This document shows positions 7,848 through 55,538 of a DNA stretch of 64,000 nt, piece by piece (within the stretch, counting starts at the first letter, position 1; each line of letters opens with the position of its first letter). Below the pieces are notes generated by a model. That model made no database searches, was not told where the DNA came from, and saw nothing but the letters and a program-made list of their open reading frames with translations. Both the position numbers and the translations under genes were made by a program. The stretch is from Botryllus schlosseri (taxonomy: Eukaryota): NCBI GenBank assembly GCA_051294905.1, contig CM119372.1:17548001-17612000 (forward strand), written 5' to 3'.

Positions 7848-15437
<7,590 letters not shown>

Positions 15438-29538: not shown

Positions 29539-30598
29539 TTAAATAGTATATTCATATTGAAATGAACCCGAATATTTTCGGCTGACACTCGTCAGGGGTA
29601 ATCGTCAGCAACTAGTAGAGAATTGGAAAGAACATTGTATATCAACAATCGTATCACAAAATATGACGTCACCAGCATGAAATTTCGAATGAGAGAGCGT
29701 TCAATGTACTATTTTTAGGTGATACACGAACTCCTTTTGTTGACAGAGTTTTGGTTGATGTATTTTGATAAAAGTTGATTCCAAGGCACACAAATGGAAT
29801 TGTGAACGGCCTCGACCTACGATTCGAAATCGGTCGTCTCGATAATTATTCGCACAAATCGGATTATCCAACAGATGTTTGCCGATGGCAGAATTAATGG
29901 CCTTTGATCGATCAGCATCAATCTTAAGTGGATGAGTTAAGGGTGAGCTTTTCACATCGCGTGACGCACGTGTTCTGATAAATCTGGGGACATGTTGGTT
30001 TATGCGGTCCTGCAGACGTCTTGACGTTCTTCCCACGTAGCCACAATCACAGTGGCACCTATATTCGTACACTACATTACTTTGTTGAAGTGCAGGAAGC
30101 ACGTCTTTGCGTGTTGAAGGGAGCAGTTGTGTTGTTGTAAAAATCACATTGGTTTTGACTGTATCGTAACATTTACCGACAGCAGAAATCAATTGTTTTT
30201 CGAAGCGGGTGGAAATGGGGCCAATCCAAGGTAGATGAATATAGACATCTTTTATTGTTCGTGCGGTGGGCTCTGTTCGTTTTTCTGCGTTGAATTGTGT
30301 TAATTTCCTCTCCATGCCGCGGCTGATGACGTGTTCAGGGTAACCGTTATCAAGTAAGATTTTTCGGATGTAATCAAGTTCTAAACTCAGTTTGTTACCC
30401 GAACATATCATCAACGCTCTATGCACGAGTGTGCCTATGAGGTTAATTTTTCTGCGTCTAGGACTGAATGAATTCCAGCGAAGGTATTGGCCTGTGAATG
30501 TCGGTTTTCTGAAAACAGACGTTTCAAATTTGTTGGTATTGCGCTTTTCAACTAATACGTCCAGAAATGATAATGAGTTATTGCGTTCTTTTTCTAAG
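29539..30598 (-). mobile_element. 5'-truncated Penelope-like retroelement (RT C-terminus + GIY-YIG endonuclease)
   Basis: Open frame from about 30598 to 29701: SLSFLDVLV..VFRKPTFTGQYLRWNSF..HRA..NGYP..LPWIG..SNVVYEYRCHCDCGYVGRTSRRLQDRINQH..SAIGKHL..LESTFI. AATTTCGAA is duplicated at 29530-29538 and 30599-30607. Confidence 0.92.
29566..29599 (-). ncRNA. Minimal type I hammerhead ribozyme in the Penelope terminal repeat
   Basis: Minus strand ACCC-CUGACGA-GUGUCAGCC-GAAA-AUAU-UC-GGGU: intact core, stem I ACCC/GGGU and palindromic AAUAUU stem III. Confidence 0.8.
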
Positions 30599-30655
30599 AA
30601 TTTCGAAGAATAGTAAATTAAGTTATCACACTATAATTATTTTGTCTGTCAGTAC

Positions 30656-34929: not shown

Positions 34930-35200
34930 CTAAATACATGCAATTTCTACTAAATGATCACTATAGTCAGCCCACAAGTTTACCGGACCCCGACCTGACA
35001 TATCGATCTCGCCTGACTCCTTGGGTCACGTGCCACCTCATTTTGTCGCTTGTCCTTTTGTATTATGCTCTCTTAGTTTTCATTCGGTGTGTATGCCTCC
35101 TTTTTTACATCGCCAAGGTGTTTTATCGCAGTCTTCTGGTATATTGAAATGAGGAAATAGGTAAAATAAATTGATTGATTGAAGTAACTGAACTGATACA
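34930..35200 (+). mobile_element. Family A LINE 3' tail in the opposite orientation
   Basis: TTCAAGTCTAAATACATGCAATTTCTACTAAAT...TTTACATCGCCAAGG...TATCGCAGTCTT...(ATTG)n. Confidence 0.65.
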
Positions 35201-35310
35201 CACAACGGGATTGCCTATCACTACCACTTTGCAGACTAATTCTTCCTCCATTTAATATATATAGTTTTGATTAGAATTGAATACCAGTATTGGCCTAGCT
35301 CATAAAAATC

Positions 35311-38300
35311 ATGACGTTGCGGATTGGCATTGTACTGCTATTTCTGGCTACTATAATCAACGAAGCATCGTCTCAAGCAAAGAATAGCAAATCAGCGCGG
35401 AAGATAATAGTATGTTTCGTTGATCCTTCAATATTCAATGTTGTTCCTTTCTTCATGTTGGTTGGGATTTTGTGACATAAGAGAGAAAAAAATGATGTGT
35501 ATTTTCATCAGAAAATAACGATTCTTCTCTTAACTAGAACCTTAATGTTCAACTTTTTTACTTGAAACTTTACCCAATCATCCCATACCTAATTCATAAC
35601 CGTCTTGTGCAGGTACAAAATGTGAAGATCGATGATAAAACTCGAATATCGATATACGACGGTGTAATCGGTGCTGAAAAAATTACTGTGCTTTCGGAAT
35701 ATGCTCAAAATGGGAATTTACAATTTGTACAAGAGGTAGGTCAATCATTTACTGTATCTCAATTGCAACAGAGACGACTGGTTTTGCCCAGCATGGGTAA
35801 TGGGTACTTGGGTAGGCCTACTCAATAATTTTGTGTGATTGGCATATTTCTGTCAGTAGCGTGTAAGGCAGAACCTTTTTTCCAATCTTATGCTCGCTTT
35901 TATGCGGAATTATTATCTTTTACCATTTTTATATGAATAAATTGATGTTGATTGTTTCATCGCAAATAGGCTACAATTACACTATGTAACATTTTTTTTC
36001 CTTGGTAAATAATTACCGTACTATGTTTTTTTGTGCCATAAAAACATGAAAAATCTTAGTTATACCACAATAACTTCGGGCACATGTTACTCAGAGTACT
36101 TTAAATCTGTATTTTTGGATCATTTCATGTCTTATCAACCTAAAAATAGATTGGGTCTACATCAAGTTTCAGATGACCTTCCCGCTGTTTATCAATGGAT
36201 TTCTCCACTTCAGCTGTACTTTTGTAGTGAAGCCCACTGCAATTCCTCTTCCTCTTTATTTGCTTTTCAAGTTCACAAGTTTTTTTTTTCGGTAGCCTAC
36301 CATAAAGGAAGGCTAAAAATAGTACTTTTATTCTCTATCCCATATATTGTCACTTTATGACTAAATTACATCCAACCGCTTCAGCAATGTTCATTCCGTA
36401 GCCTACTGCTTACATTTATGACTAGTGCGAGATCGCGAGTCTATGAATCACAAAAAAGGAGATGGATTCCAATGGAGACGGCATTCTAACCAACAAGCAA
36501 TATATCGTTAGATTCAGAATTTCAACACGTAGCCAACTACGCCACGAAGCTAGATCATTTATTAATATTTTTATGAAATCAATACACCACACGATTGCAA
36601 TATAATGAAAAGATAGGAGGGTGCCAAAACGACTTGGAGTACTGTAGTCTTTTAATCAGACACCCGCCTTGGCCTACAGCATGTAAATAAGAGGCAATGC
36701 ACACTGGATAAGAGAAAGGATAAAATATAAGTAGGCGACAAAAATGAATGCTGCAGGTGTTGGTAGGCGAGGTCGATATCGGTGTTGGGATGACTCGAGT
36801 CATGACGTGACTCGAGTCACTTTTTACGTATGACTTGACTTGCCTCGAGTCACTTTGCTCAAATGACTTGACTTGACTTGGCGTATCAGAAATGTGGATT
36901 GACTCGTGACTCGGAGCAAAATTCACGAGTCAATTTCAAGTCATCAAGTAATCGGTGACGATAAAAATCACTGTGTCTTACATATGTTCGGATTGTTCGC
37001 GAAGCGCTGATGTAACCCGCAAGAGCGACCAATCATTCAATGATCGTTTGTCCTACTGAGCCTCCATTGTTCTCTCACAAATAAATTGAGCGCAAACGAA
37101 GTGATTGAAGCTTACCGCTTACGTTGTCGTAAACTAGTATAGTAAAGTAATTTGATAGCAGAATGTATAATTCTGTTCTCTGTTCTTACCTTAACCAAAC
37201 CTCTTGTTTTATTGAAATTGAATTCGAATATAGGTTATGTAGTTCTCAACCATTAGCGCAGGCTCGAATAGTATCAATATGTTAATGGGCAATGTATTGC
37301 ATCTCATCAATTCGTTTCTCTATTCTCTATTTTGGCTGATAACTATAAACGGAGGCTATGCAATTGCTTACGTAGTTTAGCAGTTCTACGTATAGGGCTA
37401 TGTGAGCGATATAGCGCTTTCTTCTGCGTATATTTAACTCTGTATTCGTTCATCGGTTCAAAATCTATGACCATTCTATTTGTATTTCAGACAGCTAGCA
37501 AAATGCAATGACGTAATCATGCCTCATACTTCGAGAAGGCAACTTGACTTGAATTGTGACTTGACTCGTGACTTGACTCGACTTGACTCGAGTCACCTCC
37601 AAAATCGATTGACTTGACTCGACTCGAGTCACCTTCGAAAATCGATTGACTTGACTTGACTCGAGTCAAAATGTGCAATGACTCGAAATGACTCGTGACT
37701 CGAAAGTAGTGACTTGATCCCAACACTGGTCGATATGTCATATTGTGGTCCGGTAATCTTGAAGGCAACCTAGAATAAGTTCGTGCTGTTGATATCTTCT
37801 TTCAAACAAGCCGTGAGTGGACCGCTTTTGCTAACTAATTTGATCGATACTATCAATAGATGGTAGAGCTACTAAAGCGTTCCACCATAAATACCTGTAT
37901 AATAATGATATATTACTTGTTGGGTTCGCATCCCATTGAGGTCGTGTTTTACAGTTTTGAAAAGCGAAGCAAAAATTTTCGGCAAAATACCGCCGGTTTC
38001 AGCTGGTAAAATGCAGACGCACGCCGTACAATGAGCATATTTATATTTCAGAACTTTGACTATGCCATGGATAACGGACTGACGCCTTTCTTGTCCGTAC
38101 TGGATAGAGAGGAGTTCAGCAAGTCAAAGGCAAACGACGTTATCAAGAGCTTGGTGAAAAAATCTATCGGCGCAGATGTTAGTTTGTGTTGTTTTTTTGT
38201 TCTATTTTATCCTTCCAAAGTGTTGTAGATTTCCTTTATATCGATATGCTTGTCAGTTAGATGGGTCAATCATATTGAAAGTATACTATCTAATAGTCCA

Positions 38301-41300
38301 TACTTTAATTACCCTTAAGCATGAACTGTATGTACGTTTTATCTCGATATCTGGAAATAACGATATTGCATGTATCCATTTTCCAATACCGGTTGCGTCT
38401 GTAATTGTGGTTATGAACATTCGCACCAATGGGTACTGTTGCTCTTTGTTAAATGATATAGTCGTAGTTTCCGAATCTACTTCTCCCATGCTTGGATCAT
38501 ACAACTTTTAAAAAATTGCATTTGCTTGTATTTTAGTTTTTTCAAGTTATGTGATGCCTTTGTGTTTTCGTCGGTGTGAATTAATGCACATTCATCAGTC
38601 ACAAAGTGTGAACTTGGTTGTATCCTTCAGGTGAAATTTACAAACGCCTATATGGAGCTGCTGCATTCGTTAGATCCCAAGCCGCCTGTGGTTCAGTTTT
38701 GCCGCGAAAACGTTTACTACGCTACGATTTTCTTGCCTAACAAGTGGGGACACAATATGTATGGACAGGTACCCGTTTTCTTCCATTCGTCGTGATTCAA
38801 TGTACAAACAGCGTTGTGTAGGACTGGGAAAAATGGAGTATCTGAGTGTCAAGTATTGAAGTTCGAGTCAACTTTTCCGGTATAACTCATCATTACGTCC
38901 TAAATACAGGAAAATTTCAGAAGCTGAAACACGCTCTTTTCTGTCGACTGCAAACGAAGCATTGTCAGATCATCTCGAGCAGAAATAAATTTCTTTTGTG
39001 CACATTGTGAGAACTGACAACGTTGCAGATTGATGACTATTTAAAAGAAAGGTCGTTTTTATCGACATGCATAGCCACTTGTTTTTGATGCTTTAGCGTG
39101 TATGAATTATCCAAGTTTTCTTTAAAGTTACTTGCGACATTCTTCAATGTCTCTCGCTCGCTTTATTGTAGCTGTCATACTAGATAACATAGCGATCAGT
39201 GGCACCATCTGGTTTTACAGGAAGTGGTGTCATATCCTGATACGACTATGATTTTCCCACTCTGTAAATGATTTGCGGAAAGTCTGGCAATTCCGTATGC
39301 CAGCCTTATGTTAACTATCAGTAGATTAATCCGAGATATCTGTGATTTTTAGCTGTCATTTTACACTATTTCGACCAATAACAATGTGAGTTCGACGCCA
39401 AGAGAGGAAATCGTTCACACCGTACACCCAAAACCAGGCAGGATTGTGGTGTGGCCGTCCTGCGCACTTCAAGCCGCACACCCACCTGCGGTCAATTATT
39501 TCGCTAATCTCATGATGCTGAGATTGGTGTATACAAAAGCGGATGCAGAGGGTGAGTGCTTTAGTTGATGCTGAAATCAACTGATACACGAAAATAAGAC
39601 GTAATACGTTCACTGAGAAATATACTTCCTGTACAGGGATGATCATAGTAGTACTTGCTGATACCAGTATTCAACTAGAAGTAGCATTTTCCAAGTCAAT
39701 AAAAAAATAAGTATCGTCGGCCTAGTTTTTGCCTTAAAAACTGAAAACTGTTACTAGAAGTGGAACTGGTCTAAAAATCATTACCACTTGAGTAGGCTAA
39801 GTACTACAAGTAGGCGAAACCTACTTCATTACTCTGAAAAAGTAGAAGTGGTTTGTTGCTGACCAGTGACCACCTCTGCTCACTCCTACGTCACCCAAAA
39901 CGCTTTGAGATATTGGGAGATTTGAGGAATAATTAGACCAAGTCGTTGCGGTTGCTGCGATAGCAATGGCGACTCTGTTACCGCGACACTCTTTGTGAGA
40001 TTTCCGGTTCGTTTGAAGAAAGAACGATTGCCCTTTTCAGAGACAGTGAGCGAGAAATTTTTGATGAAAGATCCCGAGAAGCCAAAACTCGGAGACTGGA
40101 CTTTCACGAATGCTGACTCGAAGCGAGAGATCGACTATGCTAGTCATTTAAAACGAAGTTATTTCGACAGCAAACGGAGGTTTGTCAATTTTACTGCTCC
40201 GGCATTCGGCTGCATGTTGAGATTTTGCACCGTTACGGAAGGTTATCCTCGACAAATGTTAGGCCGTGTTAAGCCGAGTAACAACACGCAACAAGATAGT
40301 ATATGGCGTTACCAATAACAACTATTGTAGGTTTAATTGGTGTCTCGGGTCACGGAAATAGGATCAATAGCATGATCATGTTTACGTGTTGTATCGACAT
40401 CCTATCTGTTCGTTACATCACATCATGTCTTGATTGTCGCATTGTACCTTGTTTGTCATGAGCGCATGGAAATAATAGAACCGCTGACAATGACTATTAT
40501 GACTATTACTACGATATAATCACCACTTGCGGAGAAAATTTGTAAAGGGGTTAAAAGTGGTATTGAATTGAAGTACAAATACTATAATGCTGTGGTTCAG
40601 TGCAGTGATCAAAGTCATCGCCCACTGTCGCTTTGAAATATTTCGATGACCCACTTCTCACGGTTGAACTCGAAATATATAATGCTGGCAGTAATTCTAG
40701 CCTTGTGATGTAGCCTAGCCTAATCATGACCATTGAACAGACTGGTCAAGAACATATTGGAATTATGAGTATTATGACTCGAGAATGTATCATTATGTCT
40801 TGATGGTTATTGTATGACCGTTTTCAAACCCCGAACCCTGTTTATTGTGTGTAGAAAATAGCGATTCCGAAGTCAATTAACTTGTCAGGATGAATGTCCT
40901 TACCTAGGCCTACTATATTTCGCATTCGGTTTGCTCCCAATGACTGTCAGCTGAAAAGCATGGAGTGTAATATATTTGCCGAGGCTGTAATGAATGAATG
41001 AAACCAAGTTTTCATTTCACAATTTCCAATTAGCTACATGGCTCACCCCGAAATGTTCCTATGGCACGCCCCTTAAGAACCACTCATAATATAATGTAAC
41101 ATGACCGATATCAATTTTTTGTATTTACGACAGAGGCATATATGTACTGGATGACTTATATACCCCGGCTGAATTGAAGCAGTTTCGTAACATCTTGCTG
41201 GAAACAAGTTCGCTTCGCGTTTCCGAATATGACGGCTTCGCCTTGGAAGACAACGATAACGTTCAGTGGATTGCGTCGTATGACGTACGTTGTCACTAAT

Positions 41301-44300
41301 TAAATATATGTTCGTCGATGCGTGGATTAAATCGTCAGTGTATTGACCAGAGTATGGATCAAGTCACTACCTTCGAGTCACAACTCATTTCGAGTCATTG
41401 CACATTGACTTTGAATCATGCCTTCTACTTCAAAAATTAAACTCGACTTGACTAGTGACTTTACTAGACTTGACTCGAGTCACCTCGAAAAATCGAGTGA
41501 CTTGACTTTACTCAAGTATGCTTAGAAAATCAATTGACTTGACTCGAGACAAGTCAAGTCAGTCGTTTTTGGCGGTGACTCGAGTCAAGTCAAGTTGGAT
41601 TTTTGAAGTAGAAGGCATGATTCAAAGTCATTGCATTTAGATTAGATTTAGATTGAGTCCCCATATTCTGAATTGAGGAACAAATATAGAGTTGAAAATA
41701 TACGCAAAAAGGCGTTGAATCGTTAGATCATATGTAGAACTGCTAAAGTACGTAATTAACGGTATAGCCCCAGTCTATAATCATCAGCCAAGCCAGAAAT
41801 AGAAGATAGAAAACGATACCATGATATACAATTTCAGCCTGATGCAATTGTTGACGAATAATATCAACGTATGGAGGATATTCGTTCGATCTAAATCATA
41901 CAAGAGGGTTGGTTATATGAGCACAGGGCAATGTGACCAGTTTATACAACAGTGATACATTGCTATTGGATGACTTAACTACTAGTTTTCGACAATGTTG
42001 CATAAGCCGTAACCTCCGATCATTGTGTTTGCGATCAATATATTTGTGATATAACAATAGAGTCTCAGTAAAACGCATAATCATTATGTGATTGGGTGCT
42101 TTCACAGGTTACACCAACCAGCATATAGCTAAAAATCCAGATAAAGCGATATAGACAACACCGATTACTCGATGGCTTGAAATTGACTCGTAAATTTTGC
42201 TTCGAGTCACAAGTCAATCCTCATGTATGAAACGTCGAGTCATTTTTATAAATTGACAGGCCTGAATGCACTTCAAATTGAGTTTGTTACAGCAAATGTG
42301 ATTACGGCCGTTGCATGCAGTGCTTAATCTGGTAAATGCCAGTCCGATAATGTCATACGCTGAAAACATTTTTGTCGAAAACTACCGAGATTGTGTCTCA
42401 GCTGTGGTTTCTTCCGTTATCCAGGTGGAGGAATTTGTGAAGACTCCAGTCTGGACCAGAATGCAAGAACTGCTGTTCTTCTTGACCCAGGAAAACGAAT
42501 GGTATCCATATGACGTCGCCATGAACTATATTCGTCCGGCGGATCATACAAGGATCCATCCTGATGCTGAGCCCCATCAGGTTTGGTCGTTTGATACGAG
42601 ACATGGATTTTGTTTGTTAAAGAACGAATTCGTTAGCTACCATGTTCAATGAATAGTGTTCATACAGCCAGGGCCATGGCGAGATCCAAGATGGATGAAA
42701 TACAAAGGACAGACAAATAAACCATGAAATTTTTCCGGTCCTAATGTCACCTGTTCAGGGCATTTTTGGTAAACTGATGACCAGGGCAATTTTTTTACCT
42801 AAAAATCAAAATTTTGACATTTTTTTACCTTAAAAAACTGAATTTTGACCTCATGTATGCGAATTAGGTGTTTCCGCACATAATGACATAACAACATTGT
42901 TGGGTTATATTTTTCATCTGAACATGTCACACACAATGTACAATGCGATAAGACATAATGCGATGTCATGAACAGATAGGAGGATGTCGAACGACACGCA
43001 TCAGTAGCGATCCTTTACTCTAACATCCACCTCGGCCTAGAGTGCCCGATGTCACAGTTCTTTTCGATGTTGATCTTTTTTTGTAGCCGCCGCCCTTTCT
43101 ACTAGTTCTTTCCATTCCTTGTGAGTGCTTTCTTTCGTCGGGTCTTTTACTGGGCTTTTTTATCGCCGTAAGAATGGTAACGGCGGGGGAAGAGGAGCCC
43201 AGATAAACCTCCGACAGGAAACGAACCCAGTCCGTCTGATTGGTGGGCGCTTATCGTAACCACTACACTATCTCCCCCTGTCTGAATTGTACTACTTATC
43301 TTCATTTCTGGTTTCAACTGTCTGTCTGTTTGAAGTAGTTTAGCCTGTAAAAACTTTTTTGACTTCAAATCTGACTAATTTTTACATGAAACAACTTAAT
43401 TTTAACGAAATCTGGACCTATGAAGAATTCCAGTAGTGACATCACACATAATGGTACAACTAATTAAAATTTGTTGTATTGCAACGAAAGAAACTTTCCT
43501 ACATTCTCAGGTAGAACCACAAAGTAGCTTGCCAAGAATGGAGAAAGAACGTTCAACAGCAGCAGTTGTTGGCTACCAACACTGAAGTTGTGCATACACT
43601 GCTGGTGACACACCGTGTTGCTTCATTCTGACGATGTTGCCTACATCACAATTTTTCATCATGCACTTCTGGATATAAGAACCAATGCCCACGCAGATTG
43701 CTTCAGTTAGGATATTGCGGCACGTTAAGCATAACACCACATGTCAACCTATTTGTCTCATTTGACCGTTTATGATTCACAATGAGCCGACAATTGGCCG
43801 TCTACAACGGTAGGCCTTTAAAGTAGGCTACATGCTGCAAAATTTCAAATGATAAGATCACTGACAGTGCAAACATCTACAATACAAACGAAATGCAGGT
43901 TGCAAAAATATTTTGACTTTGTAAACAATTTTGAATATTTTTGACATAACGCTACAATTTTGATAACATTTTGACATGTCAAAAAAACTGATGCCCAAAA
44001 ATAAAATAAAGTCACTTTCGCCACCCTTAATCAGGGCCTCATTGACACAAATAAGGACACAATTCAAAAATAAGGACTACAAATAAGGATTTTATGGCAA
44101 CCATGCCGACCACTTAATTGTTAAATCTTTATTAATACTGATTTATTTGATAGTTGTTTAAGTGGTAGTTATGAAATGTTGTGCTTGATACAGAGTACTT
44201 GCAACACCATTCGAGTCCTGTTGCTATTGATCTAACAAACACCTACACTTCTCACCTGATCTAATCTATTGATGCAGCCAACTGACGTATCGTCATCTTA

Positions 44301-47300
44301 CAGGTGGAATACACCTTTCTTTTGTACTTGACCGAGAACGTCACTCGAACCGATTTTGGCGAAACCGTTTTTGTGGAGCGAGAGAAGCGAAAATCGGACG
44401 GAATTCACGCCTTCACAAATCCAGGCGGAGAAGAGTACGAGCCCATTGCCGCCGTTTGGCCCAAATACGGGAGGGTTGTTATTTTCAGAAGTAAGGTCAC
44501 CCACAATTCTGACAGCTGCTGTAGCTCGGCAGGCTCGAAAAACCGGAGTGATTCAATTCGGAATTTAGTATTGGGCTTCGAGTCGAGTTTTCCAGTATGG
44601 ATATTATGAAAATTTCAAATATTTACCTTTTATGCTATTTATACATGTTTTGGATGCTGTGGTACGACCAATCGAGGGTTTCAAAGTTTCCACAGTAGGA
44701 AAAAGTGTTGGAACCATAATTGAGTTAATATAACTCGCAGTGGAAAGGAGCGTACAATTTTAGTACTCACAATAATCGTTTCGCTATACTCAACTCGAAT
44801 TATTACAATTAAAAAGCCTACTTATCAACGAGAATGATACTTCATCATCATCATCATCATCATTGGTTTATTAGCAATTTTATCAGTTCAATACACCACA
44901 AAAATGCGATACAATGAAAAGACAGGAAGATGTCGAAGCGACAAGGAGTAGTCTATGGAATCTGACACCCACCTTGGCCTAGGCGATGTAAAGAGGAGGC
45001 ATGCACACTGAATGAAAGTAAAGAAGATAGTATAGAAAAAGAATGCGACAAGAAATAGGGCGGCATGTCATGGGAAGCGAGATCGATAGGTCAGTCGTGG
45101 TCCGGTAATCTTGAGGATGTACTGTATTTATTTAGTAGTAATTGCTTGTATTTCGACTTGAATGTGGACATGCTCGTCGACTGTCGGATGGCCGGCGGGA
45201 TACTGTTCCACACATCAGGTCCGGCATATTTGATGGAGCGATGATCTTTTCGGTCGATCATATGATATTTGGACGACGTGGACGCGCGTGTGTTGTACTT
45301 GTGCGCTTCGGTACTTTTTTCCCAACCTGGAAGCCTTGAAACTTCAATTGATCGTATAACATCTTCCAAAAGTAGTACAAGTACAAGGCACACGTACGTT
45401 AGTTGAAATGACATTTGTGTGAAGTCATGTCCACCCACAGCATTGTATTGTCACGAGGTGCAATGAAATCAGTAGGATCGAGAAAAATAACACATTATCT
45501 TTGTGTGGTATATAAGTGATATTGTTTTTCGCGGTCACATAATTGGTACGGTACATATGTCAACTTTCCACGTCATCCTTACTTATGGGATGTCATAACG
45601 AGTGATACTCAACTCGAAGCGTAATGCTCTATTCGGAATCGAGCCACTCAGATACTCGATTTTACCCAACCCTAGTGACAGCAGGGGCGGGCAACTTCTT
45701 CAGTGGGATATGGTCGAGTGAAGATCAATATCCTTGTTGTTTGTCCGGCATTGACCTGTTTTCAGCAAAACCCTGTTGGACAGTAATACCAGAGGTGGGC
45801 ATTTGTAGATTGCTTTGACCGCCATTGGTTTACGTGGCATACTGCTCGCTGGTGTCTTGGCTGGCCTGGGGCGAATCTTTCCCCGACCAATGTCAGTAAT
45901 CACAGCCAGTCGAATATGTGGTAGTCTTGTGACAAAAACACTCTTGGTTTTAAATATATGATGGCCTATTCTGTTCAATGAAACACTTTTCGTTTCTGCT
46001 TACGGCGCAACATTTATAATTGTGTTTAGATGTGATAGAACATTCCGCGAGACCGCTCAGCACGTCACATTTGGCTTGCCGGTATACGTTTGCTTGCAAG
46101 GCAAGTCGAAGCAAACGTCTGTCACTTATAAAGCAAGTGTACGAAAAGATGGAAGCCATCGATGACGGGACTAAGGAATTTGCAAAGCTCAACCAGTGAG
46201 TCGATTAGTTTTTTATTGAATGCGAGAGCGCATTTGCATTCTTCGGTCTGCTACACATTGTTAGCTTGTATCTCTAAGGCAGAGAAAAGTTCTGTGTCGG
46301 CAGGTTGTAGGGGAGAGGAGGCCAAGATGAGACACTTTTCTGATAATTCAACGCCACTCGAAGAGTAATGCCTTCTGAGGATTAATTTTGGTACCAATGG
46401 AAAGCCTGTGATCTGTACTATTTATGACTATGGCTTGAGTTATATTGAACAACATACTGATGGATTACTTGGCCCTCAAAAATTCTTGCTCAAATGTCTC
46501 AACTTACCCCCAGGTGAGAGTAAGATGAGACACCAAGCAGTTCTTGCTCATTACACCACCAATTCATCCCAAATGATGAATCAACTAGCAGCATCGTGAA
46601 TAAAATATAATAATCATGAAATAATTCACTTTTAAAAAGAATTTGTACATCATATACAAATTTAAATGACATCGAAAACCAATTATCCATGAGATCCAGC
46701 AACAATAAGAGTTTCGTTAATATTTTGTCTTGTAATGTCACATCTGGTAAACTACTAGATAAATGATACATTTTGTGTGCCTTCAACAGTAAATTTTGAA
46801 TCTTGCGAGGCCTTCAATAGAAAAGCCCTCTGATACCCACGTCTCAACTTACCCCCATGGTTTTGTCTCATCTTACCCCCACACCTCAATTATTGTATAA
46901 ACTTGAATAAAAAAATTTTTGTCTATTAGTTTTCAGAGGTAAGTGCATGCTTACACTGCTAATATTGCACTCAGCCAGCTCCAGTAATGTTGTTTTATAA
47001 TATGGAGTACTATGATAGGTAGGTATGCCCTTACAAACATGTATTCACATAACTGACATCGACTGTGAAAATATAGTTTTTGGCATTTTTCTCCCCAACC
47101 TCAAATCTGTTTGCCTTGTTAATATGGTAGAACTATAGAATGACATTATGGGAACAGCATAGTTGAAGGAATCTGTCCATCAGAAAATTTTTCTATGAAA
47201 AAATTGCATGTCTCATCTTGGCCTCCTCTCCCCTATTTATCAATAGAGGATATCAGTACGGTACTTGAGTACTTGCTTTTACGCAAAACCTACTGACGAC

Positions 47301-47754
47301 ACTGCCATTCGATGGGTTTTTGAAAATACAGTCTCCGTGACCATTTTGCCCCATCGGTCGAATTTTACTCGCTGAAATTAGTGCAAACATATCCCGACAC
47401 TATTTCCCACATTGTAAAATCCTAATTGGAAACATCAAGCAGTTTCGCCTGAAAACTGTTACCACTTGAGTAAATAGCACAAGTAGAAAAAACATGTTTG
47501 CCGTATACTGACCATCATATAACCTGGTATTGATTTTTTTCCGTGTCCTTGAGTACAAGCTGTCAGCCGAGTCTAGTTCGCTCACTATATACAACGTCTT
47601 TTGTACCAACAGAGACCTGTCAACAGGCCGTCACGATAACCCGGCCAAATCAAAGCTTTCCACGGAACAGTTGCAGGAGAAATTTGACGATATCAAGGCC
47701 AAAATATCCCAGCAAATGGCGGATGGCCTCCGGGATGTAGCCAGCAATTTGTGA
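35311..47754 (+). CDS. Uncharacterised secretory-pathway protein with tandem 2OG-Fe(II) dioxygenase domains, 541 aa
   Basis: Exons 35311-35409, 35613-35735, 38052-38177, 38631-38768, 39353-39551, 40041-40179, 41134-41284, 42425-42580, 44304-44490, 46030-46195, 47613-47754. All are GT-AG, phases are compatible, and the 1626-nt join is open. Signal-peptide-like start MTLRIGIVLLFLATIINEASS. C-terminal domain has RIHPD (HxD), FLLYL...FGETVF, PKYGRVVIF, EHSARP (distal His) and CRYTF (Arg). Confidence 0.88.
36780..37728. mobile_element. Second copy of the CAGTGTTGGGAT hAT-like element, inserted in a family A LINE tail
   Basis: TIR CGGTGTTGGGAT...ATCCCAACACTG with a perfect 8-bp TSD GTCGATAT. Confidence 0.9.
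42895..43278 (-). mobile_element. Full-length tRNA-derived SINE (family B) with a LINE-like tail
   Basis: Minus-strand head GGGGGAGATAGTGTAGTGG...GGTTCGTTTCC. Further copies at 28700-28836 + 33477-33672 (split), about 40350-40455 and 62600-62880. Confidence 0.8.
44841..45312 (-). mobile_element. Family A LINE 3' end with (ATG)n tail
   Basis: SIKYAGPDVWNSIPPAIRQSTSMSTFKSKYKQLLLNKY; (CAT)n at 44843-44863 on +. Confidence 0.8.
46310..47233. mobile_element. TA-flanked MITE (Tc1/mariner-like)
   Basis: 25-bp TIR GGGGAGAGGAGGCCAAGATGAGACA / TGTCTCATCTTGGCCTCCTCTCCCC with TA on both sides. Confidence 0.88.
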
Positions 47755-48240
47755 CAGTCTCTCCAATTCATCTCTTGATTCCATCAGATCGGGTAGAGTT
47801 CCGCTTTGGACATAATGCCGCGCGTGTTTGTAGTGTCGTTTTAAGACAACTCTGTCTATACGAACTTGATATTCGGATGCAAAAAAATATTTTGCTTGGG
47901 TCAATAGAAGTATGTGCTACTGTGTATCAACTTATTCCTAATTACAAGGGTATTAAACCTACCAGTATGGATTTTATGACTAGGAATGCATTTTTTATGG
48001 ATAATTTTGCCAACTCCTGACAAATCCCACTATTGCATATGCAATGCACACAAGTAAACTGTCCAACATTAGTTGATATGTCAATTTTGTATATATTGCA
48101 CCTTGCCAAGGTTTTTCACTGGAATGTTTTTGCACATTTTATCTCGATTTATCGATGCCTTCTTTTCAATCATTGTTACTATTATATGCAGAATTTTATC
48201 AGATCAATAAATTTTTCAGAAATCGATCACTCGGGTTTGT

Positions 48241-52998: not shown

Positions 52999-53996
52999 TA
53001 GGTCTAGCACTGTCTGCGTTCAGACCAAGGTGATGGAAGTATCCATCAAAAAAGAGAGCATCAAAGATTTAAATTATAAATTAAATTTCCCTTGAAAGTG
53101 CTGCTTTTGAGAATGTCCTGATGTCGGTGTCGTTCCAATTGAGGACATTGTTCATCAGCGTTGCGGAGGGTCTTCCTTTTTTCGTTCTCCTTTCATCTTC
53201 AAATGTAATTGACTTCACGACACTGTCATTAGGTGTGCAAGAAATTTAGCTTGTTGGTGATCAATGAATGCTGAGAGGTCTTCAGTGCGACAGATTCTAT
53301 GAAGATTCTGATTGCTAATTTTGAATGCGTGATCGGTTCCCCTTCGAGTGTAGCCTCCGTGTACCATTTTTCGCAAAAATTGTCTGTAGCAGACATCCAG
53401 GACGCTTCTTTGATTTTCCGAAAGAGACCATACACTGCAGCCATATGTGAGTCGACTTCGCACAAAGGCATTCAAAAATTTTATTCTTGTACCAATCCAA
53501 ATTCTGAAGTTTCGAAGCAGGTATATATAGATTTGGAAAGCTGCATGAGCCGAGCTGATCCTATTGTTGATTTCAGATATCCCCACATTCGTTTCGTTAT
53601 AGTGAATCATGCACCCAAGGTATTTGAAAACTTTCACGTTTTCAATATCATGATTATGCAGAGAGCAGATTGAAGTCGGGTAAGTCAGTTCTTCATTGTG
53701 GTTAAATATCATAGTTTTTGTTTTCGACTGATTAATTTGTAATGCAAACTCAGTAAGAGCTTCTAATAGTAGTTTTAGACCTTCCTGAAGAGAAGTTTGG
53801 TCTTTAAAAAAGAATTCCAGATCGTCCGCATAGCCTGAGCCCATGTTGATAGCGATTCCTTGGTAGTTCTTCTCCCTTTTATTTTCTTGTGCATAGTCCG
53901 GTGTGCGAAAATGATACTGGCTGAAAGCGATATCGGCTAGTTTCGATCTGTGTAGGAAAACTCTCACGGCATAGTCCATATAAAGATTGAAGTCGG
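52999..53996 (-). mobile_element. RTE-like LINE reverse transcriptase fragment (5'-truncated) inserted in a family A LINE tail
   Basis: FNLYMD...GYADD...LQINQSKTKTM...IENVKVFKYLG...EINNRI...RSRLTYGCSVW. The flanks 52951-52998 and 53997-54170 rejoin into a family A tail. Confidence 0.85.
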
Positions 53997-55538
53997 CACC
54001 ACCAAAATGCGATTCAATGAAGAGACAAGAGATAGGAAGATGTTGAAACGATTTGGAGTAGTCTTTGGAATCAGGTAGCCACCTTGGCCTGGGCGATGTA
54101 AAGAGGAGGCATGCACAGCACACTGAATGAAAAGTATAAGAAGATAGTATAATAAAAAGCAAGCGACCAATTCAGTTCTTCCGTAGTTTTGTGGATCAAC
54201 ACCATGTGTTAGACTGCGACTTTTATCTTTCATTTGCTACTTGAACCGGTAATCCTGTAGCTGGCGACTGCGGCACTGATCCCGAAAGTATATCCATAGG
54301 TTATATTCGGTTCCGGGCACTGAACACCCCATCCCCAATTCACCTTCAAAGTCAGAAGTAGGGATTGCCCAATGCAGACCAAGACAGGGTTGTGGGCAAC
54401 TATTTGCCCGGCGGGCCAAATGTGAAGCAGAAAGTACGTGGGTGGGCCGAGAGAAAAGCTTAGATTATGTTTTGCGGCTTGCAGTTTTATTTCTAATTTG
54501 AAAGCAGTGGATGCGTTAAACTAGGCTGCATCCTATCTCTGTGTGGCTTGATATAATAACCCTGCCGTTTTGCTAGCTTCGCTAGCTAGCAGGTCCGCAT
54601 CAGCCGGGTGTATATATTAACTGCATGGTTTTTCTGGCAATGCCGACTCAAATTATGTTCTATATACATGGAGACGTGCTCGGCACTCGATATGAACTAA
54701 AAAAGACAGATTTACGGCTGACTTCATGAAACAAATATGTACTGTAGTGCTCCGAATCTTGTTGAAATGTCGGCCTTCAGCCACATCTTTCATTGCGTTA
54801 CACAACATCGTTTGTGAGCGAGGATGACCGCTAATCACGAGCACAAAGCCAAGGTCTGATATTAGACCATGCCAAGAAGACCACTGGTCATGGTCAGGTT
54901 TACCTGATGCTACGAAATAAGTCCATCCATTCGCTCAACACTTGGTGAGGTCAACTAGATACCATTTCAAAAATTGATATGCGTAGCATTGCGTGAATTA
55001 TAAAAACTATACTTTCAGGGTCAATCTACAGAATGTACTCTCGCGACCATTCCGAGCATCAAGGATTCAGACAATGGGGCTTAATCGTTTTCGGGTAGTC
55101 AGACTGCATTGTGATTATGCCAGTGTCTGAATTTCACAACAGATATTTCAAAATCAGGATATTCTTTCACGGCATATACCTTCTAAAACTATTACAAGAC
55201 TCAAAGGTACACCAATATCATTTATTGAATAAGATATTGTTAATTGAGAGGCTCTGTTGGCTTCAGCAGAATCGTCGTGCGATTAGTGATGGCAAGTGGC
55301 ATTCGAAGAGAAACCTCAGATCTACATGCGTGTAGAACTGTAGATTGGCACATCAGTTGATCGCATTGCGACGAGGCAATTTTCAAGAGAAAATTTCGAA
55401 CACAGAACGCCATCAGTAATCAACCGCCAAATTGTCAGTATATATCTACACAAAAATGATAAGTATATTGCATGATTAATCGTTGCATTGCGGCGCCAGT
55501 TCCCAAGTCCTTTGGATTTCCGACGAATTGATTCGCTT

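What the first reader, a model, noticed from the sequence alone, without database searches (positions are those of the whole stretch)
35311..47754. Hidden 11-exon gene for a secretory-pathway 2OG/Fe(II) dioxygenase of no family I recognise
Seen: eleven GT-AG exons, barely visible in the ORF track, join into a 541-aa open frame. It has a hydrophobic N-terminus (MTLRIGIVLLFLATIINEASS), two N-glycosylation sequons (NVS, NVT) and a complete facial triad H370-x-D372...H444 plus R457 (His codons at 42557 and 46041). Established: HxD...H plus a basic residue defines 2OG-Fe(II) oxygenases, and the characterised lumenal animal members are P4H, P3H, PLOD and ASPH. This protein does not show their architecture by eye. 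Inference: an uncharacterised ER or extracellular hydroxylase acting on secreted proteins, matrix components or metabolites.
Basis: partly seen in the sequence, partly recalled or inferred. Interest (0 to 1): 0.85.

Follow-up and report, generated by a model that had tools for sequence, protein, structure and literature searches.

The report
Secreted two-domain 2OG oxygenase gene
This is a real, spliced and transcribed sea-squirt gene for a probably secreted iron/2-oxoglutarate oxygenase, built from a dead copy and a live copy of the same fold, from an animal protein family whose function is not known.

Summary
Eleven GT-AG exons (35311-47754, + strand) join into a 541-aa frame with the stated N-terminus, NVS173, NVT389, H370, D372, H444 and R457. 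Spliced contigs from four public runs bridge all ten junctions.

The closest named relative is the uncharacterised Styela clava LOC120342750, 50% identical. Named relatives come only from tunicates, amphioxus, hemichordates, echinoderms, cnidarians, placozoans, ctenophores and sponges. All carry only generic or 'uncharacterized' names.

After the signal peptide come two homologous double-stranded beta-helix (DSBH) domains (hhalign E 2.2e-39). The N-terminal one has lost the metal and 2OG ligands. The C-terminal one keeps them in 80-85 of 85 relatives.

An AlphaFold model of a 49%-identical orthologue (pLDDT 84) matches prolyl hydroxylases domain by domain (Z 15-16). Over both domains it matches OGFOD1/Tpa1, but with the catalytic domain in the opposite position.

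Activity, location and substrate are inferred, not shown. I read it as an uncharacterised variant of a known enzyme kind, of moderate interest.

The parts
35311..35409 (+). Exon 1 (aa 1-33). Holds the start codon and a signal-peptide-like N-terminus; the likely cleavage site is after S21 (35373), with A at -3 and S at -1.
   Evidence: In-frame TAG 15 nt upstream. Junction 35409/35613 is bridged in X6 and X10. A 12-residue hydrophobic stretch scoring at least 1.8 (Kyte-Doolittle) lies near the N-terminus in 71 of 85 aligned proteins, the window's own included. The cleavage site is my reading of the -3/-1 rule; SignalP was not available.
35613..35735 (+). Exon 2 (aa 34-74), start of the N-terminal degenerate DSBH domain.
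   Evidence: Junctions bridged in X1, X6 and X10.
38052..38177 (+). Exon 3 (aa 75-116), N-terminal domain.
   Evidence: tblastn with P0001 and P0002. Junctions bridged.
38631..38768 (+). Exon 4 (aa 117-162), N-terminal domain. It carries the stretch that aligns to the HxD region of the C-terminal domain but has no metal ligands. It also holds C140.
   Evidence: Junctions bridged.
39353..39551 (+). Exon 5 (aa 163-229), end of the N-terminal domain. Holds sequon NVS (N173, 39383-39385) and C199. The positions equivalent to the distal His and to the 2OG-binding Arg are not conserved here.
   Evidence: On its own this exon gives a weak 2OG-FeII_Oxy_5 hit (E 0.031).
40041..40179 (+). Exon 6 (aa 229-275), the linker between the two domains and the first strand of the C-terminal domain.
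   Evidence: Junctions 39551/40041 and 40179/41134 are bridged. The corresponding region of the model has low pLDDT, around residues 231-240.
41134..41284 (+). Exon 7 (aa 275-325), start of the catalytic C-terminal DSBH domain.
   Evidence: Junctions bridged in 4 of 4 runs.
42425..42580 (+). Exon 8 (aa 326-377). Holds the conserved W351-x-P-Y-D, N359 and R362, and the metal ligands H370 (42557-42559) and D372 (42563-42565).
   Evidence: H370 is kept in 85 of 85 and D372 in 84 of 85 aligned proteins.
44304..44490 (+). Exon 9 (aa 378-440), core strands of the jelly roll. Holds sequon NVT (N389, 44337-44339).
   Evidence: This exon alone gives 2OG-FeII_Oxy_3 at E 0.0015 (19.9 bits, cut-off 27).
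46030..46195 (+). Exon 10 (aa 440-495). Holds the distal metal ligand H444 (46041-46043), R457 (46080-46082), K463 (46098-46100) and the start of the C-terminal helical region.
   Evidence: H444 is kept in 84 of 85 (one gap), R457 in 80 of 85 and K463 in 78 of 85.
47613..47754 (+). Exon 11 (aa 495-541 plus the TGA stop), the long C-terminal helix. The 3' UTR runs on to at least 48200.
   Evidence: An X6 contig covers 47612-48200. AATAAA motifs at 48206 and 48241. Helix 511-540 in the model.

Best explanation
The locus is a transcribed 11-exon gene of an ascidian (sea squirt). It encodes a 541-aa protein that enters the secretory pathway through a cleavable signal peptide.

The mature protein has three parts:
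- An N-terminal DSBH domain (about aa 34-226). It is a diverged internal duplicate of the catalytic domain and has lost the iron and 2OG ligands, so it is a pseudo-oxygenase module. It probably serves as a scaffold or a substrate-binding module.
- A C-terminal DSBH domain (about aa 263-466). It binds Fe(II) through H370, D372 and H444 and the C5 carboxylate of 2OG through R457. It uses O2 to hydroxylate a substrate while 2OG is decarboxylated to succinate.
- A C-terminal helical tail (about aa 468-541).

The most likely substrate class is a residue, proline first, of a lumenal or secreted protein, because both domains look most like protein prolyl hydroxylases.

Shown: the gene structure, splicing, transcription, orthology, the internal duplication, conservation of the catalytic residues, and the fold (on an orthologue).
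Inferred: catalytic activity and ER or extracellular location.
Speculative: protein or prolyl substrate, and the role of the dead domain.
For: Gene and transcript: (all 10 junctions bridged, runs from four studies).

Orthology: 50% identity to Styela clava LOC120342750 and 49% to P0001. In the tree the window's protein sits in the tunicate clade, sister to those two.

Catalytic residues, in 85 aligned proteins including the window's: H370 85 of 85, D372 84 of 85, H444 84 of 85, R457 80 of 85.

Pfam 2OG-FeII_Oxy_3 covers the C-terminal domain of P0001 and P0002 above threshold (40.4 and 42.7 bits against 27). It matches 30 of 30 family members scanned.

Internal duplication: hhalign of the N-terminal against the C-terminal domain gives probability 100%, E 2.2e-39, over 196 columns. 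In P0001 the residues that align to H370, D372 and H444 are T, I and C. In the window's protein the same stretches show no HxD and no aligned distal His.

Fold: AF2 model of P0001 with pLDDT 84.1 and pTM 0.83.
- N-terminal domain against algal P4H 3gze: Z 16.2, 176 residues aligned, rmsd 3.6.
- C-terminal domain against PHD2 5l9r: Z 15.9, 198 aligned, rmsd 4.2.
- Seven of the eight best rows of the search that does not use Foldseek are protein prolyl hydroxylases (OGFOD1 among them); the eighth is PolD.

Secretory route:
- The window's protein has a hydrophobic N-terminus with R4 and A-S-S before Q22.
- A signal-like stretch is present in 71 of 85 proteins; most of the 14 without one look N-terminally truncated or sit just under my threshold.
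- One relative (P0008) ends in KDEL.
- Sequon N173 is kept in all 11 tunicate proteins aligned, the window's included.
- A cysteine pair in the N-terminal domain (C140 and C199 here) is present together in 30 proteins, absent together in 45, and single in 10. That fits a disulfide.

Polymorphism: of 9 coding variants among the listed rows, 6 are synonymous. None touches the catalytic core.
Against: - No enzymatic, localisation or substrate data exist for any member, as far as my searches reach.
- The structure is of an orthologue, not of the window's protein. The spliced product could not be handed to the folding or Pfam tools.
- The window's exons taken singly stay below Pfam thresholds.
- Fold-match Z-scores fall gradually (15.3 down to 11.2 over 50 rows). 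Small-molecule enzymes (PolD 15.1, SnoK 14.5) and AlkB (14.1) tie within about 1 Z of the prolyl hydroxylases, so the fold does not fix the substrate class.
- The profile of the family finds PDB sequences only weakly (best E 6.7e-4), and the prolyl-hydroxylase hits fall in the dead N-terminal domain.
- The cysteine co-occurrence and the signal counts are inflated by shared ancestry.
- No signal-peptide predictor was run.
- The window's protein has no KDEL-type end (it ends SNL), so ER retention versus secretion is open.
Confidence: 0.6

Rival explanations
1. It is a secreted or lumenal 2OG oxygenase that acts on a small molecule, a glycan or a lipid-linked metabolite, not on a protein side chain.
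For: PolD (Z 15.1), SnoK (14.5), EvdO2 (14.2) and other small-molecule DSBH enzymes tie within about 1 Z of the prolyl hydroxylases. The NCBIfam and ESM-Atlas neighbours are single-domain bacterial and phage PF13640 proteins of unknown substrate. Members of PF13640 also act on free amino acids, according to the abstract of PMC3684760 as listed.
Against: The best-scoring match of each domain is a protein prolyl hydroxylase. The tandem layout with a dead domain has its nearest parallel in OGFOD1/Tpa1, which act on a protein (titles). 2OG, ascorbate and Fe(II) supply is established for ER-lumenal protein hydroxylases (general knowledge).
Confidence: 0.25
2. The N-terminal hydrophobic segment is an uncleaved signal anchor. 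The enzyme would then be a type II ER or Golgi membrane protein with a lumenal catalytic part, like P4H-TM.
For: The hydrophobic segment sits at the extreme N-terminus. The P4H-TM catalytic domain matches the C-terminal domain at Z 13.4.
Against: The hydrophobic core is only about 12 residues (IGIVLLFLATII). It is followed by small residues that fit the -3/-1 rule. No second hydrophobic segment lies beyond residue 90 in any of the 62 proteins examined (61 relatives plus the window's model). No EF-hand family is found in any of 30 members.
Confidence: 0.1
3. It is the tunicate orthologue of OGFOD1/Tpa1, the cytosolic/nuclear ribosomal protein prolyl hydroxylase, and the gene model has a wrong N-terminus.
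For: OGFOD1 and Tpa1 are the top Foldseek matches over both domains (E 4e-9 to 2e-7). JGI labels two relatives 'Tpa1-like'. Pfam 2OG-FeII_Oxy_4 hits the N-terminal domain in 23 of 30 members.
Against: - The catalytic triad is in the C-terminal domain, not the N-terminal one.
- Identity to OGFOD1 is only 9-10%, and the rmsd of about 17 A shows a different packing of the two domains.
- Ofd1_CTDD is found in 0 of 30 members.
- The N-terminal exon and its junction are in transcripts. The hydrophobic N-terminus recurs in 71 of 85 proteins.
Confidence: 0.03
4. It is a decaying or catalytically inactive copy, a pseudoenzyme or pseudogene.
For: The tunicate branch is long in the tree. The N-terminal domain is already dead.
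Against: The 541-codon frame across 11 exons is open. All four catalytic residues are intact and conserved across the family. Spliced transcripts occur in runs from four studies. Of 9 listed coding variants, 6 are synonymous.
Confidence: 0.03

Closest known systems
OGFOD1 / Tpa1 / Ofd1 (ribosomal protein uS12 prolyl hydroxylases; PDB 4nhy, 4nhx, 3kt7, 3mgu, 4nhk)
   Same: It has two tandem DSBH domains in one chain, one catalytic and one without ligands, with an Arg binding 2OG after the distal His. These are the top Foldseek matches over about 500-590 columns (E 4e-9 to 2e-7). VIA aligns 350-359 residues across both domains (Z 15.1).
   Different: - The order is reversed: here the dead domain is N-terminal and the live one C-terminal.
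- Identity is 9-10% and the rmsd of about 17 A points to another relative orientation of the domains.
- There is no Ofd1_CTDD match (0 of 30).
- This protein has a signal peptide, sequons and a probable disulfide. OGFOD1 being cytosolic/nuclear is recalled, not tested here.
HIF prolyl hydroxylases (PHD2/EGLN1, Trichoplax and Dictyostelium PHD)
   Same: They are the best structural matches of the catalytic C-terminal domain: 5l9r Z 15.9, 198 residues aligned, rmsd 4.2, 15% identity; 6t8m Z 15.4; 6f0w Z 15.3. They share HxD...H with an Arg as the 2OG C5 ligand.
   Different: PHDs are single-domain cytosolic enzymes. The family profile finds them only at E 0.19-1, and in the N-terminal domain. 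This protein adds a second, dead DSBH, a signal peptide and a helical tail.
Small P4Hs (Chlamydomonas P4H-1 3gze/2jig, Bacillus anthracis P4H, Pseudomonas putida P4H 4iw3, PBCV-1 vCPH) and the catalytic domains of the lumenal collagen enzymes P4H, P3H1 and LH3
   Same: They are the best matches of the N-terminal domain: 3gze Z 16.2, 5hv0 15.8, 4j25 15.6. P3H1 and LH3 catalytic domains score Z 15.1-15.2. The lumenal or secretory location is shared with the collagen enzymes (inferred for this protein).
   Different: The domain that matches them best has no metal ligands. None of the accessory modules of the collagen enzymes is present (peptide-substrate-binding domain, TPR region, glycosyltransferase domains): Pfam finds only three 2OG-FeII_Oxy families in 30 of 30 members. 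That C-P4H uses Lys, not Arg, for the 2OG C5 carboxylate is recalled.
NCBIfam NF052475 'FlmC family 2OG-Fe(II) oxygenase' (bacterial, 181 positions)
   Same: It is the strongest profile match by sequence. It covers nearly the whole profile in each domain, with E 9.2e-13 (P0001) to 2.2e-34 (P0018).
   Different: Scores of 44-119 bits lie far below the model's cut-off of 240, so these are not members. It is a single-domain bacterial family. I could not find what the name rests on: the Caulobacter FlmC described in passages of PMC7591256 is said to resemble a cytidylyltransferase.

Membership tests
Fe(II)/2OG-dependent oxygenase superfamily | HxD/E...H facial triad plus a basic residue for the 2OG C5 carboxylate | tested here: met
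   H370, D372, H444 and R457 are in the window's joined frame. They are kept in 85, 84, 84 and 80 of 85 aligned proteins.
Fe(II)/2OG-dependent oxygenase superfamily | Double-stranded beta-helix (jelly-roll) fold | tested here: met
   Tested on orthologue P0001 (49% identical), not on the window's own protein. AF2 gives pLDDT 84.1 and pTM 0.83. Both domains match solved 2OG oxygenases at Z 15-16.
Pfam PF13640 2OG-FeII_Oxy_3 | Score above the gathering cut-off (27 bits) | tested here: inconclusive
   Exon 9 of the window alone scores 19.9 bits. The spliced protein could not be given to the tool. The orthologues pass: P0001 40.4 bits, P0002 42.7 bits. At E up to 0.001, 30 of 30 members match.
OGFOD1 / Tpa1 / Ofd1 | Catalytic DSBH at the N-terminus followed by a non-catalytic Ofd1_CTDD domain | tested here: not met
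   The triad lies in the C-terminal domain, and the N-terminal domain lacks it. Ofd1_CTDD is matched by 0 of 30 members.
Collagen prolyl 4-hydroxylase alpha subunit | N-terminal dimerisation and peptide-substrate-binding domains (Pfam P4Ha_N) before the catalytic domain | tested here: not met
   In 30 of 30 members only PF13640, PF13661 and PF13759 are found at E up to 0.001. The catalytic domain 7zsc_B aligns at Z 13.7, to the dead N-terminal domain.
Prolyl 3-hydroxylase (leprecan) and lysyl hydroxylase (PLOD) | N-terminal TPR region (P3H) or glycosyltransferase domains (PLOD) in proteins of about 700 aa | tested here: not met
   The protein is 541 aa and no such Pfam family is found in any of 30 members. 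Only the catalytic domains align (8k0m Z 15.2; 8one Z 15.1).
Aspartyl/asparaginyl beta-hydroxylase (ASPH) | Asp_Arg_Hydrox catalytic domain with a TPR region | tested here: not met
   The family is not among the Pfam matches of the 30 members. That ASPH does not appear in the fold-search lists is noted only under Tried and rejected.
Transmembrane prolyl 4-hydroxylase (P4H-TM) | N-terminal membrane anchor plus an EF-hand domain before the catalytic domain | tested here: not met
   No EF-hand family is found in 30 members. The catalytic domain 6tp5_B aligns at Z 13.4 to residues 255-519. Whether the N-terminal segment is cleaved was not testable here.
NCBIfam NF052475 FlmC family | Score above the curated cut-off (240 bits) | tested here: not met
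   The four members scanned score 43.9-119.1 bits.
Secretory-pathway protein | Cleavable N-terminal signal peptide | not testable with these tools
   No signal-peptide predictor was available. Indirect support comes from the hydrophobic N-terminus, its presence in 71 of 85 proteins, the co-occurring cysteine pair and the conserved sequon, and KDEL on P0008.

The most novel reading that the evidence does not exclude
The family carries out an oxygen-dependent modification in the ER lumen or extracellular space that is not one of the four known animal lumenal hydroxylations (collagen Pro-4, Pro-3 and Lys-5; EGF Asp/Asn). The dead N-terminal DSBH would serve as the substrate-recognition module. 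The family would be an ancient animal invention: three paralogue groups are already present in sponges, ctenophores, cnidarians and placozoans. It would then have been lost in vertebrates and protostomes.
Probability: 0.25. Interest if true: 0.7.

Novelty: new variant of a known kind. Interest (0 to 1): 0.5.

Why it matters
Animal 2OG oxygenases of the secretory pathway are few, and each has turned out to matter: collagen stability, EGF-domain signalling, and P4H-TM disease. This gene represents a further family that is old and conserved and that nobody appears to have studied.

- The family has at least 103 cluster representatives at E up to 1e-30.
- Its named members range from sponges and ctenophores to amphioxus and tunicates.
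- Its catalytic site is intact, and its layout is unusual: a pseudo-oxygenase domain followed by an oxygenase domain.
- No vertebrate or protostome appears among the named hits.

Ciona has three paralogues and is genetically tractable, so the function is directly testable there. The finding does not overturn anything, because the enzyme chemistry is of a well-known kind.

Tried and rejected
- A blind enumeration of all GT-AG chains timed out. I replaced it with homology-guided enumeration.
- Single exons against Pfam give only sub-threshold hits.
- The look-up of sequencing runs: no RNA holder listed. The runs were laid anyway and proved to hold spliced contigs. No DNA run was laid as a control.
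- Two odd joints at exon 10/11 (46194/47612 and 46189/47607) have the same 1417-nt skip. I take them as alignment shifts caused by variants, not as alternative splicing.
- No paralogue or further copy of the gene lies elsewhere in the window (tblastn).
- Literature searches found no paper on this family. They covered five LOC identifiers of relatives (0 papers), the Pfam names and accessions (23 papers, none on this family by title or abstract), and general terms.
- PMC13514124 only lists the Pfam name among its abbreviations (passages).
- FlmC searches and passages of PMC7591256 did not explain the NCBIfam name.
- ESM Atlas gives only single-domain phage PF13640 clusters at score 0.92, which is a weak lead.
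- Earlier findings of this scan: nothing found.
- ASPH and JmjC enzymes do not appear in the fold-search lists shown. That is no proof of difference.
- Intron positions do not correspond between the two domains (my comparison), so they neither support nor date the duplication.
- I did not run complex prediction, because the report claims no binding partner.


Full report
**1. The observation**

- tblastn with two relatives found by an exon search (P0001, and P0002 = Styela clava LOC120342750) placed exons 3-10 in order on the + strand.
- Exons 1, 2 and 11 were read from the sequence and from frame arithmetic.
- Several GT/AG combinations keep the frame open for exons 3-6. The combination with the best splice consensus gives exactly 541 aa.
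- The final model has GT..AG at all ten introns and a 1626-nt CDS. It carries H370, D372, H444, R457, NVS at N173, NVT at N389, and four cysteines (140, 199, 456, 462).
An in-frame TAG lies 15 nt before the ATG.

**2. Transcripts**

I laid four public runs from four studies on 35000-48200. They contain contigs that skip each of the ten introns at the predicted places:

| Junction | Runs that bridge it |
|---|---|
| 35409/35613 | X6, X10 |
| 35735/38052 | X1, X6, X10 |
| 38177/38631 | X1, X6, X10 |
| 38768/39353 | X1, X6, X10 |
| 39551/40041 | X6, X10, X16 |
| 40179/41134 | all four |
| 41284/42425 | all four |
| 42580/44304 | all four |
| 44490/46030 | X6, X16 |
| 46195/47613 | X1, X16 |

- For the last junction, X1, X6 and X10 show the same skip placed one base to the left.
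- One X6 contig of 1795 nt runs from exon 4 through exon 11 into the 3' UTR.
- Unique intron bins have zero depth in all four runs. Repeat-rich intron bins (36764-38086, 42938-43819, 44702-45583) have very high depth.
- The runs are not on record as RNA and no DNA control was laid. The inference that they are transcript assemblies rests on these features.
- Of nine coding variants among the listed rows, six are synonymous. The three others are E258A, Q528K and Q529R, and all lie outside the catalytic core.

**3. Relatives**

- The joined protein is 50% identical to Styela clava LOC120342750 over 522 aa and 49% to P0001. It is 36-39% identical to Ciona and Phallusia proteins and 27-35% to the rest.
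- Searches with P0002 (36 hits) and with a 30-sequence profile (35 hits) were followed by an exhaustive HMM search. That search found 1382 proteins at E up to 1e-3, 515 at up to 1e-10 and 103 at up to 1e-30, with the best 150 listed.
- All named members come from the following groups:
  - tunicates: Styela, Ciona intestinalis (three loci), C. savignyi, Phallusia, Clavelina;
  - amphioxus;
  - hemichordates;
  - echinoderms;
  - cnidarians;
  - Trichoplax;
  - ctenophores;
  - sponges: Corticium, Sycon, Oscarella.
- No named member is a vertebrate or a protostome. Many hits are unnamed, and only part of the list could be looked up, so this absence is a lead, not a result.
- Every name given is 'uncharacterized', 'hypothetical' or 'predicted protein', an automatic 'prolyl 4-hydroxylase alpha subunit ... 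domain-containing' label, or, for two JGI records, 'Tpa1-like'.
- A FastTree tree of 85 proteins of 400 aa or more, rooted at midpoint, shows about three old paralogue groups. The window's protein sits in the tunicate clade of one group, sister to Styela and P0001.

**4. Architecture**

- The AF2 model of P0001 (alignment A1, 30 sequences) is confident: pLDDT 84.1, pTM 0.83. It shows two jelly-roll domains (about 31-226 and 264-465) and C-terminal helices (468-540).
- The two domains are homologous to each other: hhalign probability 100%, E 2.2e-39, 196 columns, 15% identity. The protein therefore arose by internal duplication.
- In the C-terminal domain the ligands are almost invariant across 85 proteins: H370 85, D372 84, H444 84, R457 80, K463 78.
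- In the N-terminal domain the aligned positions are not ligands. They are T, I and C in P0001. The window's protein has no HxD and no aligned distal His.
- A minority of relatives in another paralogue group keep an H-x-D remnant there, but they have Tyr or Leu at the distal His position.
- Pfam sees 2OG-FeII_Oxy_3 in 30 of 30 members, 2OG-FeII_Oxy_4 (N-terminal domain) in 23 of 30, 2OG-FeII_Oxy_5 in 3 of 30, and nothing else.

**5. Fold comparison**

- Foldseek ranks human OGFOD1 and yeast Tpa1 first (E 4e-9 to 2e-7). The alignments span both domains but have low TM-scores (0.22-0.32) and an rmsd of about 18 A.
- VIA-align assigns the domains as follows:
  - The N-terminal domain matches Chlamydomonas P4H 3gze (Z 16.2, 176 aligned, rmsd 3.6) and bacterial P4Hs.
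  - The C-terminal domain matches PHD2 (5l9r: Z 15.9, 198 aligned, rmsd 4.2), Dictyostelium and Trichoplax PHD, and PolD.
- The search that does not lean on Foldseek gives the same picture. Its Z-scores decline smoothly from 15.3 to 11.2, and small-molecule enzymes and AlkB lie within about 1 Z of the top.
- So the fold is certain and the prolyl-hydroxylase-like subgroup is likely, but the substrate class is not fixed.
- By sequence the family is far from anything solved. The best profile hit has E 6.7e-4, and it falls in the dead domain.
- The strongest sequence-profile match is the bacterial NCBIfam model NF052475. It covers each domain almost end to end but scores far below its cut-off.

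**6. Location**

The window's protein starts with a short charged stretch, a 12-residue hydrophobic core and A-S-S before Q22. Several family-wide features point the same way:

- A comparable hydrophobic stretch is present in 71 of 85 proteins. Most of the 14 without one look truncated or sit just below my threshold.
- No further hydrophobic segment occurs beyond residue 90 in any of the 62 proteins examined, the window's model among them.
- One relative ends in KDEL.
- Sequon N173 is kept in all 11 tunicate proteins aligned, the window's included.
- A sequon near N389 is present in 32 of 85 proteins.
- The N-domain cysteines co-occur: both in 30 proteins, neither in 45, one in 10.

These counts are not phylogenetically independent. 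No predictor was run. Secretory entry is therefore a well-founded inference, and ER retention versus secretion is open.

**7. Mechanism and rivals**

I commit to the following reading. It is a Fe(II)/2OG-dependent hydroxylase of the secretory pathway. Its C-terminal domain does the chemistry, and its dead N-terminal duplicate packs against it (the high pTM supports a fixed arrangement) and probably helps bind the substrate.

My estimates:
- About 0.8 that it is an active 2OG oxygenase.
- About 0.8 that it is lumenal or secreted.
- About 0.4-0.5 that the substrate is a protein residue, proline being the first guess.

The rivals are a small-molecule substrate (0.25), a membrane-anchored form (0.1), an OGFOD1 orthologue (0.03) and a pseudoenzyme (0.03).

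**8. Comparison and novelty**

- It works like a PHD/P4H-type hydroxylase and is laid out like OGFOD1/Tpa1 turned round.
- It fails the membership tests for OGFOD1, C-P4H, P3H, PLOD, ASPH, P4H-TM and the FlmC model.
- Predicted orthologues are already in public databases, so the protein is not unseen.
- I found no study of any member. The searches were made, read as listings and abstracts, with passages only for PMC13514124 and PMC7591256.
- I rate it a new variant of a known kind, with moderate interest.

Noticed in passing
window 12218-12700 (+): An open frame with a protein-kinase domain (Pkinase, E 1.2e-21). It contains a T-E-Y activation-loop motif, so it is probably an exon of an ERK-type MAP kinase gene upstream of the finding.
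   Followed up: partly
window 53215-54171 (-) and 29701-30630 (-): Two long open frames typical of retroelements. The first has a reverse-transcriptase match just under the Pfam cut-off (RVT_1, 29.4 bits against 29.6). The second, of 309 aa, has no Pfam match.
   Followed up: partly
window 36764-38086, 42938-43819, 44702-45583 (introns 2, 8 and 9 of the gene): These intron stretches have very high summed contig depth in all four runs (hundreds to more than 1000). They are probably transcribed repeats or transposons. Short tandem repeats of a TGACTTGACTCGAGTCA-like unit lie at 36803-36878 and 37545-37668.
   Followed up: partly
relatives P0010-P0043 and others (alignment), N-terminal domain: Most non-tunicate members carry R-R-G-D at the place where the window's protein has H-S-L-D. 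Counts at the three RGD positions are R 67 of 85, G 52 of 85 and D 78 of 85. It is an RGD tripeptide in a probably secreted protein, but it aligns to a strand of the jelly roll, so it may be structural only.
   Followed up: no
relatives, C-terminus: Many full-length members end in two hydrophobic residues (LI, LL, LF, WF, IL). One (P0008) ends in KDEL. The window's protein ends SNL. The meaning is unknown.
   Followed up: no
relatives P0016, P0017, P0018, P0021, P0024, P0026, P0028, P0032: Some members of the long paralogue group keep an H-x-D in the N-terminal domain at the aligned position, although the distal His is replaced. It looks like a remnant of the once-active duplicate.
   Followed up: partly
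window 46195 and 47600-48200: There is a probable A/G variant at the last base of exon 10 (Q495R), inferred from joints shifted by one base. The 3' UTR is strongly polymorphic in run X6: 33 differences and 23 gaps over 47612-48200.
   Followed up: no
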